This document shows positions 33,622 to 34,020 of a stretch of DNA of 64,000 bases, in pieces; positions within the stretch are counted from its first letter, which is position 1; every line of letters begins with the position of its first letter. Source of the stretch: Candidatus Spongiisociaceae bacterium (lineage in GTDB: Bacteria; Actinomycetota; Acidimicrobiia; Spongiisociales; Spongiisociaceae); the NCBI GenBank assembly GCA_965219685.1, contig CBDCOH010000002.1, forward strand, positions 3,968,001 to 4,032,000. The letters are read 5' to 3'. Under the pieces are notes generated by a model, which was given only the letters and a program-made list of their open reading frames with translations, searched no databases and was not told the origin of the DNA. The translations under genes and the position numbers were made by a program.

Positions 33622-34020
33622 TCACCTTCCTTCGGTCGTTCTGTCGTCGTTGGTGAGGCTCGGCCAGGTGATCACTCGGAGCTGTATCTCGACCCGGGTG
33701 GTCCTGGTGGTGATCCAGTCGGCTATGCCGTGGGCCATCCGGCGGAGTCGGGTTACCACGTCTCCGTCACCTACGGTCCAGGGTCCGACCACCATCTCGT
33801 GGCTTCGGATCCCGAAGCGGGCTGCCTCCGCGATCCCCTCCTCGAGTACCCGTGCGAGCGGCGCCGAAGTCGTCCCGGCCCTGAACTTCAGGGCACGGTG
33901 AGCCTCGTCGGCGGGTATACCGTCGAGACGCGAAAGGATACGCCTCGCCTCGTCCTGGTCGATACGCACGTTGGTCTTGCAGGCCGTGACCGTTGGTTCC
34001 GGGATCCGCGCCCTGCTCAT
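33622..34020 (-). CDS. Divergent ribosomal protein uL22 paralogue
   Basis: Colinear with uL22: A...VRI....AR.I...L.G....EA...LKF......PLARVL....A.A....M.V....VGDG....RLRRMAHG.A..I..RTTRVEI.L; ATGA-coupled to the reductase. Confidence 0.82.
   Translation of the reverse strand: MSRARIPEPTVTACKTNVRIDQDEARRILSRLDGIPADEAHRALKFRAGTTSAPLARVLEEGIAEAARFGIRSHEMVVGPWTVGDGDVVTRLRRMAHGIADWITTRTTRVEIQLRVITWPSLTNDDRTTEGR

What the first reader, a model, noticed from the sequence alone, without database searches (positions are those of the whole stretch)
33622..34020. Ribosomal protein uL22 paralogue embedded in a di-iron monooxygenase operon
Seen: a 132-aa ORF colinear with uL22 over its whole length, including a recognisable beta-hairpin (GDG...RLRRMAHGIADWITTRTTRVEI versus GP..KR.RPRARGRA..I.KRTSHIT). 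It is ATGA-coupled to the ferredoxin reductase and lies a few nt from a DUF59 Fe-S/metal maturation gene, with no S10-operon neighbours. Several normally basic rRNA-contacting positions are acidic or neutral (for example VRIDQDEAR versus VRISPRKAR). Known: uL22 lines the exit tunnel and is normally single-copy within the S10 operon; some SDIMO clusters carry dedicated assembly factors (GroEL-like MmoG, DmpK). I know of no characterised SDIMO that uses an L22 fold. Inference: the ribosomal fold has been co-opted as a hydroxylase assembly or iron-loading factor, an RNA-binding regulator of the operon, or an alternative tunnel protein for co-translational folding.
Basis: partly seen in the sequence, partly recalled or inferred. 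Interest (0 to 1): 0.9.

Follow-up and report, generated by a model that had tools for sequence, protein, structure and literature searches.

The report
Non-ribosomal uL22 copy in monooxygenase operon
A second, highly diverged copy of ribosomal protein uL22 sits inside a toluene-monooxygenase-like operon next to a SufT-like DUF59 gene, and in some relatives the two are fused, so a ribosomal fold seems to have been reused as an enzyme accessory factor.

Summary
Window 33622-34020 (minus strand) encodes a 132-aa protein that matches Pfam Ribosomal_L22 over its full length (50.4 bits, cut-off 28). Its model folds as uL22. It falls below the rplV equivalog cut-off. The genome has a normal rplV in an L23-L2-S19-L22-S3 row elsewhere.

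The gene belongs to a distinct paralogue clade, split from canonical uL22 with 100/100 support. It is under purifying selection, dN/dS 0.11-0.32. It has lost 8 of 13 conserved basic positions.

All 26 loci with readable upstream sequence place it directly after the Rieske or reductase gene of one subgroup of group-2-like di-iron monooxygenase operons. In 26 of 28 loci a DUF59 gene follows or is fused. At least five database proteins, one metagenome locus and a Rhodococcus koreensis plasmid gene are L22-like::DUF59 fusions.

Best reading: a non-ribosomal uL22-fold partner of a SufT-like DUF59, acting as an operon-specific maturation or adaptor factor. The function is inferred, not shown. Five literature searches found no description.

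The parts
33622..34020 (-). uL22-fold paralogue (L22-like), 132 aa. Family signature in the beta-hairpin: R-[VL]-R-R-x-A-H-G-x-A-D-W-I-T-T-x-T (residues 91-107).
   Evidence: Pfam PF00237 50.4 bits. Model and Foldseek matches are uL22. Family alignments. dN/dS 0.11-0.32.
33291..33620 (-). Stand-alone DUF59 / SufT-like protein, 109 aa, acidic (net charge -11). Has DPD...T-x3-C with an invariant Cys.
   Evidence: Pfam FeS_assembly_P 64.2 bits. Best PDB match 5ird_A, E 1.4e-31, which is M. tuberculosis SufT according to PMC9045647. Invariant D21 P22 D23 T51 C55. Charge.
34017..35261 (-). FAD-dependent ferredoxin reductase (Pyr_redox_2 + Reductase_C). Its stop overlaps the L22-like ATG (ATGA).
35263..35583 (-). 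Rieske [2Fe-2S] ferredoxin, 106 aa.
   Evidence: Pfam Rieske 67 bits.
35614..36639 (-). Hydroxylase beta subunit.
   Evidence: Pfam Phenol_Hydrox 227.5 bits.
36636..36971 (-). MmoB/DmpM effector protein.
   Evidence: Pfam 76.4 bits.
36952..37230 (-). TmoB-like small (gamma) subunit.
   Evidence: Pfam TmoB 93.4 bits.
37224..38732 (-). Hydroxylase alpha subunit, toluene/o-xylene monooxygenase type.
   Evidence: Pfam Phenol_Hydrox 238.6 bits. PDB ToMO 1t0q_A E 8.3e-166 and T4MO 3dhg_A E 2.6e-159.
38746..39339 (-). SnoaL/NTF2-like protein. The start is uncertain; the listed ORF overlaps the upstream gene.
   Evidence: Conserved in all full-length related loci.
39225..39656 (-). SnoaL/NTF2-like protein.
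   Evidence: synteny.
39660..40751 (-). DJ-1/PfpI-family protein, 363 aa; first gene of the conserved cluster.
   Evidence: synteny.

Best explanation
The gene encodes a real, expressed-type (selection-constrained) paralogue of ribosomal protein uL22 that no longer works as a ribosomal protein. It arose from an actinobacterial rplV. It kept the fold and the long beta-hairpin, lost most rRNA-contacting basic residues, and evolved a new, nearly invariant hairpin motif (RxRRxAHGxADWITTxT).

It works together with the adjacent SufT-like DUF59 protein. In several lineages the two are one polypeptide, L22-like domain first and DUF59 second. Together they form an accessory module dedicated to one subgroup of four-component (group-2-like) soluble di-iron monooxygenases.

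The most likely role is maturation. The DUF59 part connects to the cell's Fe-S machinery, as SufT does. The L22-like part, through its hairpin, supplies client recognition for the operon's metalloproteins. The candidate clients are the Rieske ferredoxin encoded just upstream, or the di-iron hydroxylase.

Shown: fold, paralogy, selection, strict synteny, fusion. Inferred: physical partnership with DUF59, a maturation role, and the identity of the client.
For: - Fold and homology: Pfam L22 50.4 bits, full length. The listed Foldseek PDB matches (50 rows) are all uL22. The profile's best PDB matches are actinobacterial uL22, 8crx_r and 5o60_T.
- A canonical rplV is present elsewhere in the genome.
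- Distinct family: hmmsearch of 1.84 billion representatives gives a graded set of paralogues at 58-239 bits; canonical KRFRPRAQGRA-type L22 begins at about 58 bits.
- Careful ML tree of 94 rows: 34 paralogues against 60 canonical rows, split 100/100, found in 100% of 200 bootstrap trees.
- Selection: dN/dS 0.11-0.32 against 8 orthologues, like the reductase at 0.12-0.32.
- Hairpin conservation: 13 of the 19 positions 90-108 are invariant or at least 90% conserved in 28 sequences that average 42% column identity.
- Loss of ribosomal character: 8 of 13 conserved basic positions lost, including K24, which is basic in 100% of canonical rows and 9% of paralogues. Net charge -7 to +7 against +9 for the genome's own rplV.
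- Context: 8 of 8 genome loci, 16 of 16 metagenome loci with upstream sequence and 1 plasmid have the Rieske or reductase gene of the same SDIMO type directly upstream.
- DUF59 follows or is fused in 26 of 28 loci, counting the window.
- Fusions: P0047, P0051, P0060, P0062 and P0065 carry both Pfam domains above cut-off. So does the R. koreensis gene WP_206017194.1. Locus L024 has both in one open frame. The tree needs at least 2 changes of fusion state.
- The DUF59 partner is acidic, -10 to -13, and keeps the DP[DE]...T-x3-C cysteine motif. PMC9045647 reports that motif as needed for SufT interactions with SufS, SufU and client proteins (passages read).
- Specificity: classical group-2 clusters with alpha about 50% identical lack both genes. 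The only plasmid alpha above 60% identity (R. koreensis, 66.9%) has the fusion.
Against: - No direct evidence of binding to DUF59, the ferredoxin or the hydroxylase.
- The loci come from few lineages (sponge Acidimicrobiia, unnamed soil contigs, one Rhodococcus plasmid). Conserved synteny is therefore partly shared descent.
- Two loci with identical L22-like proteins (L019, L020) lack DUF59 downstream; an aldehyde dehydrogenase follows in L020. The L22-like protein can therefore persist without an adjacent DUF59.
- Four arginines shared with canonical uL22 (R19, R57, R91, R93) are kept and one is gained (R94). Nucleic-acid binding is therefore not ruled out.
- Classical T4MO/ToMO systems need no such factor (recalled knowledge), so why this subgroup needs one is unexplained.
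- No RNA data were available.
Confidence: 0.55

Rival explanations
1. Structural or docking adaptor in electron transfer. The L22-like protein, with or without DUF59, is a stoichiometric component that helps the unusual glutathione-reductase-type reductase or the Rieske ferredoxin dock. It would not be a maturation factor.
For: It always sits directly after the electron-transfer genes. This subgroup uses a Pyr_redox_2/Reductase_C reductase, where classical clusters use a 2Fe-2S/FNR-type reductase.
Against: L012, L013 and L015 keep L22-like and DUF59 although no reductase gene lies between the Rieske gene and L22-like. DUF59 proteins are known as Fe-S maturation auxiliaries, not redox partners (PMC9045647).
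Confidence: 0.15
2. RNA-binding regulator, or a ribosome-associated tether. The domain still binds RNA (operon mRNA or 23S rRNA near the tunnel exit). It either regulates translation of the operon or brings DUF59 to nascent chains.
For: The fold and hairpin length are unchanged, with one 1-residue indel against PDB uL22 sequences. R19, R57, R91 and R93 are kept and R94 is gained. In fusions DUF59 hangs on the C-terminus; in uL22 the C-terminus is at the subunit surface (recalled knowledge).
Against: 8 of 13 conserved basic positions are lost, including the invariant K24. Net charge is about 0 against +9 for the genome's rplV. The score is below the rplV equivalog cut-off. BLASTP finds no significant similarity to the genome's own rplV.
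Confidence: 0.1
3. A true alternative ribosomal protein that replaces uL22 in specialised ribosomes under some condition, as the zinc-free paralogues of other ribosomal proteins do.
For: It is a second copy of a ribosomal protein gene that passes the Pfam cut-off.
Against: It sits on a very long branch away from all 60 canonical rows. It has lost rRNA-contact residues. It is strictly linked to an oxygenase operon and fused to DUF59. 0 of 400 other sampled genomes of the phylum carry it.
Confidence: 0.03
4. A decaying or functionless duplicate carried along with the operon.
For: L026 carries a frameshifted copy in a degraded operon. L004/L025 carry a decayed partial duplicate.
Against: dN/dS is 0.11-0.32. 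The frame is intact in 25 of the 26 related loci that hold the whole gene (L026 is frameshifted; L027 and L028 are cut by contig ends), at 35-80% identity to the window protein. The hairpin motif is invariant. The gene is retained as a fusion domain.
Confidence: 0.02

Closest known systems
Ribosomal protein uL22 (rplV; Pfam PF00237, TIGR01044)
   Same: Same fold, colinear over the whole domain, same hairpin length. Passes the Pfam gathering score. Shares R19, G34, A40, L44, F46, R57, G86, R91, R93, A96, G98, A100, I103 and T107. Closest to actinobacterial uL22.
   Different: Second copy, outside the S10 operon. 41.3 bits against the 73.65-bit equivalog cut-off. 8 of 13 conserved basic positions lost. 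Net charge about 0. New invariant residues R94, H97, D101, W102. Fused to DUF59 in relatives. Occurs only with one SDIMO subgroup.
SufT / DUF59 Fe-S maturation auxiliaries (M. tuberculosis Rv1466, PDB 5IRD; the relation to PaaD and to eukaryotic CIA2/FAM96 is recalled)
   Same: The adjacent (or fused) partner gene is of this family and keeps the DP[DE]...T-x3-C motif. SufT acts by protein-protein contacts with the biogenesis machinery and with clients (PMC9045647, passages read). A client-recognition partner would fit that mode of action.
   Different: The window DUF59 scores below the NCBIfam cut-offs for SufT, SUF_assoc and PaaD. It is one of three DUF59 domains in the genome. No SufT or PaaD known to me has an L22-fold partner or N-terminal domain.
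Dedicated SDIMO accessory proteins (MmoD, DmpK/PHK, GroEL-like MmoG/MimG); recalled, not tested here
   Same: Small or chaperone-type proteins encoded inside SDIMO operons. They are needed for, or modulate, hydroxylase assembly and metal loading. This is a functional analogy only.
   Different: No sequence relation: Pfam at E <= 1 gives only Ribosomal_L22. Those factors belong to other SDIMO groups. Classical group-2 tmo/tou clusters have none (for two examples).
Four-component toluene/o-xylene monooxygenases (T4MO TmoABCDEF, ToMO TouABCDEF)
   Same: Alpha subunit E 1e-159 to 1e-166 against the solved TmoA and TouA. TmoB, MmoB-type effector, beta subunit and Rieske ferredoxin are all present.
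   Different: Gene order is alpha-TmoB-effector-beta-Rieske-reductase. The reductase is of the FAD-dependent Pyr_redox_2 type. The cluster is preceded by one DJ-1/PfpI and two SnoaL/NTF2 genes and followed by L22-like and DUF59. The classical order and reductase are seen.

Membership tests
uL22 superfamily (Pfam Ribosomal_L22 PF00237) | Score above the Pfam gathering cut-off over the full domain | tested here: met
   50.4 bits against 28, profile positions 1-103 of 104. Relatives score 50-64 bits.
uL22 superfamily (Pfam Ribosomal_L22 PF00237) | Alpha/beta domain plus long protruding beta-hairpin fold | tested here: met
   AF2 model pLDDT 83.2. All 50 listed Foldseek PDB matches are uL22, TM 0.6-0.75.
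Functional ribosomal protein uL22 (rplV equivalog TIGR01044) | Score above the NCBIfam equivalog cut-off | tested here: not met
   41.3 bits against 73.65.
Functional ribosomal protein uL22 (rplV equivalog TIGR01044) | Location in the S10 operon between rpsS and rpsC | tested here: not met
   It lies between a ferredoxin reductase and DUF59. The genome's canonical copy has the L23-L2-S19-L22-S3 context.
Functional ribosomal protein uL22 (rplV equivalog TIGR01044) | Conserved basic rRNA-contact positions and strongly basic net charge | tested here: not met
   4 of 13 kept, 8 lost. Net charge +3 for the window protein and a family range of -7 to +7, against +9 for the genome's rplV.
Functional ribosomal protein uL22 (rplV equivalog TIGR01044) | Incorporation into the 50S subunit | not testable with these tools
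   Needs ribosome purification and mass spectrometry.
Group-2 (four-component) soluble di-iron monooxygenase operon (context) | Alpha and beta hydroxylase subunits, TmoB-like gamma, MmoB/DmpM effector, Rieske ferredoxin | tested here: met
   All five have Pfam matches above cut-off. Alpha against ToMO/T4MO, E 1e-159 to 1e-166.
Group-2 (four-component) soluble di-iron monooxygenase operon (context) | TmoF/TouF-type reductase (plant-type 2Fe-2S plus FNR domains) and tmoABCDEF-like gene order | tested here: not met
   The reductase is Pyr_redox_2 + Reductase_C. The order differs from the R. ruber and T. roseum clusters.
DUF59 / SufT-like (the partner gene) | Pfam FeS_assembly_P domain with the DP[DE]...T-x2/3-C reactive cysteine motif | tested here: met
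   64.2 bits. D21, P22, D23, T51 and C55 are invariant in 20 sequences. Motif definition from PMC9045647.
DUF59 / SufT-like (the partner gene) | NCBIfam equivalog cut-offs for SufT, SUF_assoc or PaaD | tested here: not met
   76, 69.8, 64.2 and 55.5 bits; all are below their cut-offs.
Known SDIMO assembly factors (MmoD, DmpK/PHK, GroEL-like) | Sequence membership in those families | tested here: not met
   Pfam scan at E <= 1 returns only Ribosomal_L22 for the 132-aa protein.

The most novel reading that the evidence does not exclude
The L22-like domain still docks at the uL22 site or on rRNA near the tunnel exit of a subset of ribosomes, or binds the operon mRNA. It would then display the SufT-like DUF59 (C-terminally fused in some lineages) where nascent SDIMO subunits emerge, giving operon-specific, co-translational metallocofactor insertion. 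The kept arginines (R19, R57, R91, R93, plus the new R94), the unchanged hairpin length and the C-terminal position of DUF59 do not exclude this. The loss of 8 of 13 basic positions makes it unlikely.
Probability: 0.05. Interest if true: 0.95.

Novelty: new variant of a known kind. Interest (0 to 1): 0.68.

Why it matters
Bacterial ribosomal proteins are rarely seen recruited as domains of metabolic accessory factors. I know of no non-ribosomal family with the uL22 fold, and five full-text searches found none.

If the L22-like protein is the client-specific partner of a SufT-like DUF59, it gives a handle on two open questions. The first is how DUF59/SufT/PaaD proteins choose their clients. The second is how soluble di-iron monooxygenases and their ferredoxins are matured, which often limits heterologous expression of these enzymes.

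It also defines a previously unremarked SDIMO subgroup: DJ-1/PfpI, two NTF2/SnoaL genes, alpha, TmoB, effector, beta, Rieske, an FAD reductase, L22-like and DUF59. The subgroup occurs in sponge-associated Acidimicrobiia, in soil metagenomes and on a plasmid of the cultivable Rhodococcus koreensis R85. The Rhodococcus strain makes the question experimentally tractable.

Current annotation calls the fused protein only 'iron-sulfur cluster assembly protein', so the L22 domain is hidden.

Tried and rejected
- Complex prediction of DUF59 (alignment A4) with L22-like (A3): no verdict. Score 0.22, mark 0.32, controls not run. It counts neither for nor against binding.
- AlphaFold2 of a natural fusion (P0060, 5-row alignment): pLDDT 69.9, pTM 0.45, linker 116-142 disordered. 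It says nothing on domain packing.
- The look-up of sequencing runs: no RNA holder listed. Read laying was therefore not used, and there is no statement on expression.
- Promoter/terminator scan: 0 promoter-like sites and 3 terminator-like sites, which is the chance level. Uninformative.
- The protein-atlas search: nearest clusters score below 0.9, two of the three are L22. Adds nothing.
- BLASTP of the paralogue against the genome's own rplV: no significant alignment. The relation is visible only to profiles and fold comparison.
- Literature searches: nothing on a bacterial uL22 paralogue in monooxygenase operons. The L22-like hits concern eukaryotic eL22/RPL22L1, an unrelated protein.
- The genome search across 400 other genomes of the phylum: 329 genomes have one match each, and the best listed score is 86.9 bits, against 173.4 bits for the window's paralogue. 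The paralogue was not found in those searched.
- The same sample searched with the alpha subunit: 2 of 400 genomes have a match, at 49-51% identity. No case was found of a close alpha orthologue without the paralogue, but the sample is small.
- Considered and rejected: the antisense ORF 33256-34335 (+), 359 aa, as the real gene. The Pfam hits, synteny and dN/dS all belong to the minus-strand frames.

Fifteen genomes are flagged unpublished: G088, G391, G048, G120, G226, G268, G001, G174, G343, G018, G239, G318, G148, G336 and G082. They enter only the negative tallies. Two of them supply canonical rows (can_L042 from G088, can_L044 from G391) in the alignment and trees. No conclusion depends on them.
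Full report
**1. What is at the coordinates**

The ORF lies on the minus strand, 33622-34020. It has an ATG start and encodes 132 aa. Its ATG overlaps the TGA of the upstream ferredoxin-reductase gene (ATGA). One base after its own TGA comes the GTG of the DUF59 gene, preceded by GGAAGG.

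The nine genes upstream on the same strand are, in order:
- a DJ-1/PfpI-family gene;
- two SnoaL/NTF2-like genes;
- the hydroxylase alpha subunit;
- TmoB;
- the MmoB/DmpM effector;
- the hydroxylase beta subunit;
- a Rieske ferredoxin;
- a Pyr_redox_2/Reductase_C reductase.

The alpha subunit is a close relative of the solved ToMO and T4MO alpha subunits, E 8e-166 and 3e-159.

**2. Is it an L22?**

Yes by fold and by profile, but not by the criteria for a working ribosomal protein.

- Pfam Ribosomal_L22 scores 50.4 bits against a cut-off of 28, over profile positions 1-103 of 104.
- A family profile finds 47 PDB uL22 sequences. The best are actinobacterial (Cutibacterium acnes 8crx, Mycolicibacterium smegmatis 5o60), colinear with a single one-residue indel.
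- The AlphaFold2 model (pLDDT 83.2, pTM 0.70) has the uL22 topology with a long hairpin, strands 76-94 and 100-116.
- All 50 listed Foldseek PDB matches are uL22.
- Against this, the NCBIfam rplV equivalog scores 41.3 bits where 73.65 are required.
- BLASTP against the genome's own rplV finds nothing significant.

The genome has a canonical rplV: 110.8 bits, 121 aa, between S19 and S3.

**3. A distinct family**

- A word-indexed search found 43 clusters at 59-85% identity, all from metagenomes or MAGs.
- A full HMMER search of 1.84 billion representatives gave 452 hits at E <= 1e-3. The score gradient runs from the close family (239 and 168 bits), through more distant paralogues P0045-P0070 (120-58 bits), to ordinary L22 with the KRFRPRAQGRA hairpin from about 58 bits down.
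- In a careful ML tree of 94 rows and 117 columns, the 34 paralogue rows and the 60 canonical rows are the two sides of one branch. Support is 100/100, and the split appears in 100% of 200 bootstrap trees.
- The stem attaches among L22 rows from genomes of the same phylum. That fits the PDB ranking and suggests an origin from an actinobacterial rplV. The root is not inferred.

**4. How the paralogue differs from canonical uL22**

Thirteen alignment positions are K/R in at least 70% of the 60 canonical rows.
- Kept in the paralogue family: 4 (R19, R57, R91, R93).
- Partly kept: 1 (R26, 65%).
- Lost: 8 (positions 16, 24, 33, 90, 95, 99, 105, 106). Position 24 is basic in 100% of canonical rows and 9% of paralogues.

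Net charge in the family ranges from -7 to +7, and is +3 for the window protein. The genome's own rplV has +9.

New conserved residues all sit in the hairpin: R94 (canonical Pro), H97, D101 and W102. In 28 sequences averaging 42% column identity, 13 of the 19 positions 90-108 are invariant or at least 90% conserved. The hairpin is therefore the functional heart of the family, but with a new chemistry.

Pairwise dN/dS against eight orthologues is 0.11-0.32. The reductase gives 0.12-0.32 and the alpha subunit 0.04-0.10.

**5. Context survey**

- Genome contigs: 8 of 8 loci carry the whole cluster, from the DJ-1-like gene to DUF59, in the same order. The records are Acidimicrobiia and Candidatus Spongiisociaceae MAGs, plus one unclassified MAG, by record title.
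- Metagenome contigs: the scan was seeded only by the hairpin motif and gave 18 loci.
  - All 16 with upstream sequence have the Rieske or reductase gene of the same SDIMO type directly upstream.
  - Four carry the complete cluster with alpha 70-73% identical to the window (L013, L014, L017, L020).
  - L025 duplicates L004. L016/L017 and L019/L020 have identical L22-like proteins.
- DUF59 follows in 16 of these 18 loci. L019 and L020 lack it; an aldehyde dehydrogenase follows in L020.
- L012, L013 and L015 lack a reductase gene between the Rieske gene and L22-like.
- L026 is a degraded operon with a frameshifted copy.
- Plasmids: 1 of 72,556 records matches a fusion protein over at least 80% of its length. 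It is a Rhodococcus koreensis R85 plasmid with the same cluster, alpha 66.9% identical.
- Classical group-2 clusters have alpha about 50% identical, the order alpha-TmoB-Rieske-effector-beta, and a 2Fe-2S reductase. The two examples examined (R. ruber, Thermomicrobium roseum) lack both accessory genes.
- In 400 other sampled genomes of the phylum the paralogue was not found. Only two of them have an alpha homologue, at 49-51% identity.

Caveat: the lineages are few and related, so part of the synteny is shared descent.

**6. The link to DUF59**

Five database proteins of 248-262 aa carry Ribosomal_L22 at the N-terminus and FeS_assembly_P at the C-terminus, both above cut-off.
- P0067 and P0068 look like broken or truncated fusions.
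- L024 has both domains in one open frame.
- The R. koreensis gene is a 253-aa fusion annotated only as 'iron-sulfur cluster assembly protein'.
- On the tree the fused state needs at least two changes.

The window's DUF59 is acidic, net charge -11. It is one of three DUF59 domains in the genome. Its best solved relative is 5IRD, E 1.4e-31.

According to the passages I read of PMC9045647 (abstract, introduction, results sections 6-9, discussion):
- 5IRD is M. tuberculosis SufT;
- SufT does not itself bind Fe or a cluster;
- SufT uses the reactive cysteine of the DPE...T-x2/3-C motif to contact SufS, SufU and client proteins.

The motif is invariant here: D21 P22 D23, T51, C55.

Recurrent gene fusion plus strict adjacency is the strongest available evidence that the L22-like protein and DUF59 act together.

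**7. Mechanism proposed**

- Shown: a selection-constrained, non-canonical uL22-fold protein specific to one SDIMO subgroup and recurrently fused to a SufT-like DUF59.
- Inferred: the pair is a dedicated maturation or adaptor module.
  - DUF59 links to the Fe-S biogenesis machinery.
  - The L22-like hairpin (Arg cluster plus His-Asp-Trp) recognises the client.
  - The client is most plausibly the Rieske ferredoxin encoded just upstream, or else the di-iron hydroxylase.
- Not tested: I could not test the client, because the one complex-prediction job gave no verdict on the DUF59 pair (see Tried and rejected).
- Rivals: a stoichiometric docking subunit in electron transfer, an RNA-binding regulator or ribosome tether, a true alternative ribosomal protein, and a functionless relic. 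They are listed with odds in Rival explanations.

**8. Novelty**

Five full-text searches found no description of a bacterial uL22 paralogue in an oxygenase operon, or of an L22-DUF59 fusion.

I rate it a new variant of known kinds: ribosomal-protein paralogues with other roles, and operon-encoded SDIMO accessory factors. I do not rate it categorically new.

Noticed in passing
L004:6748-8004 (same in L025:8721-9974): One sponge MAG has about 1.25 kb inserted between the reductase gene and L22-like. The insert holds a decayed copy of the L22-like 5' part (52% identity) and a remnant of the reductase C-terminus. It looks like a partly decayed tandem duplication of the reductase/L22-like junction.
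   Followed up: partly
window 35614-38732 against L003-L006: Synonymous divergence of the hydroxylase genes (alpha, TmoB, effector, beta) is dS 0.18-0.49. For the reductase, L22-like and DUF59 genes of the same genome pairs it is dS 0.47-1.60. Possible causes are strong codon constraint or recent exchange of the hydroxylase block among sponge symbionts.
   Followed up: no
L012, L013, L015: These soil-metagenome versions of the cluster have no reductase gene between the Rieske ferredoxin and L22-like. The open frame holding L22-like runs upstream into short proline- and histidine-rich repeats in L012 and L013. The true start is unknown.
   Followed up: no
L019:451-906 and L020:8048-10008: The L22-like gene is followed, with an ATGA overlap, by an aldehyde dehydrogenase where other loci have DUF59.
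   Followed up: partly
L026:7675-9944: A degraded copy of the operon. Only fragments of the effector and Rieske genes remain, no beta subunit was detected, and L22-like is frameshifted.
   Followed up: no
L001:1851-3152 (own genome, downstream of the canonical rplV): The ribosomal protein S3 gene appears to carry a long C-terminal tail of Gly/Pro/Arg-rich tandem repeats (GGRGPGTRGGPGGKPGQGRGPGPRSGG-like units), seen in the ORF listing.
   Followed up: no
L059:12788-15991 (R. koreensis plasmid): Downstream of the fused L22-like::DUF59 gene lie an antibiotic-biosynthesis-monooxygenase-family gene, glyA and a succinate-semialdehyde dehydrogenase. Upstream are AraC and LuxR regulators and a second glutamine-amidotransferase-like gene. 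The substrate of this SDIMO subgroup is unknown.
   Followed up: no
window 29541-30953 (+): A 470-aa ORF has a lipoprotein-like N-terminus and Ala/Glu/Gln-rich repeats, with no Pfam match at E <= 0.001. It lies next to a BPD_transp_2 permease gene.
   Followed up: no
window 32293-32853 (+): A MarR-family regulator gene is convergent with the end of the monooxygenase operon. It was not among the genes conserved in the related loci surveyed.
   Followed up: no
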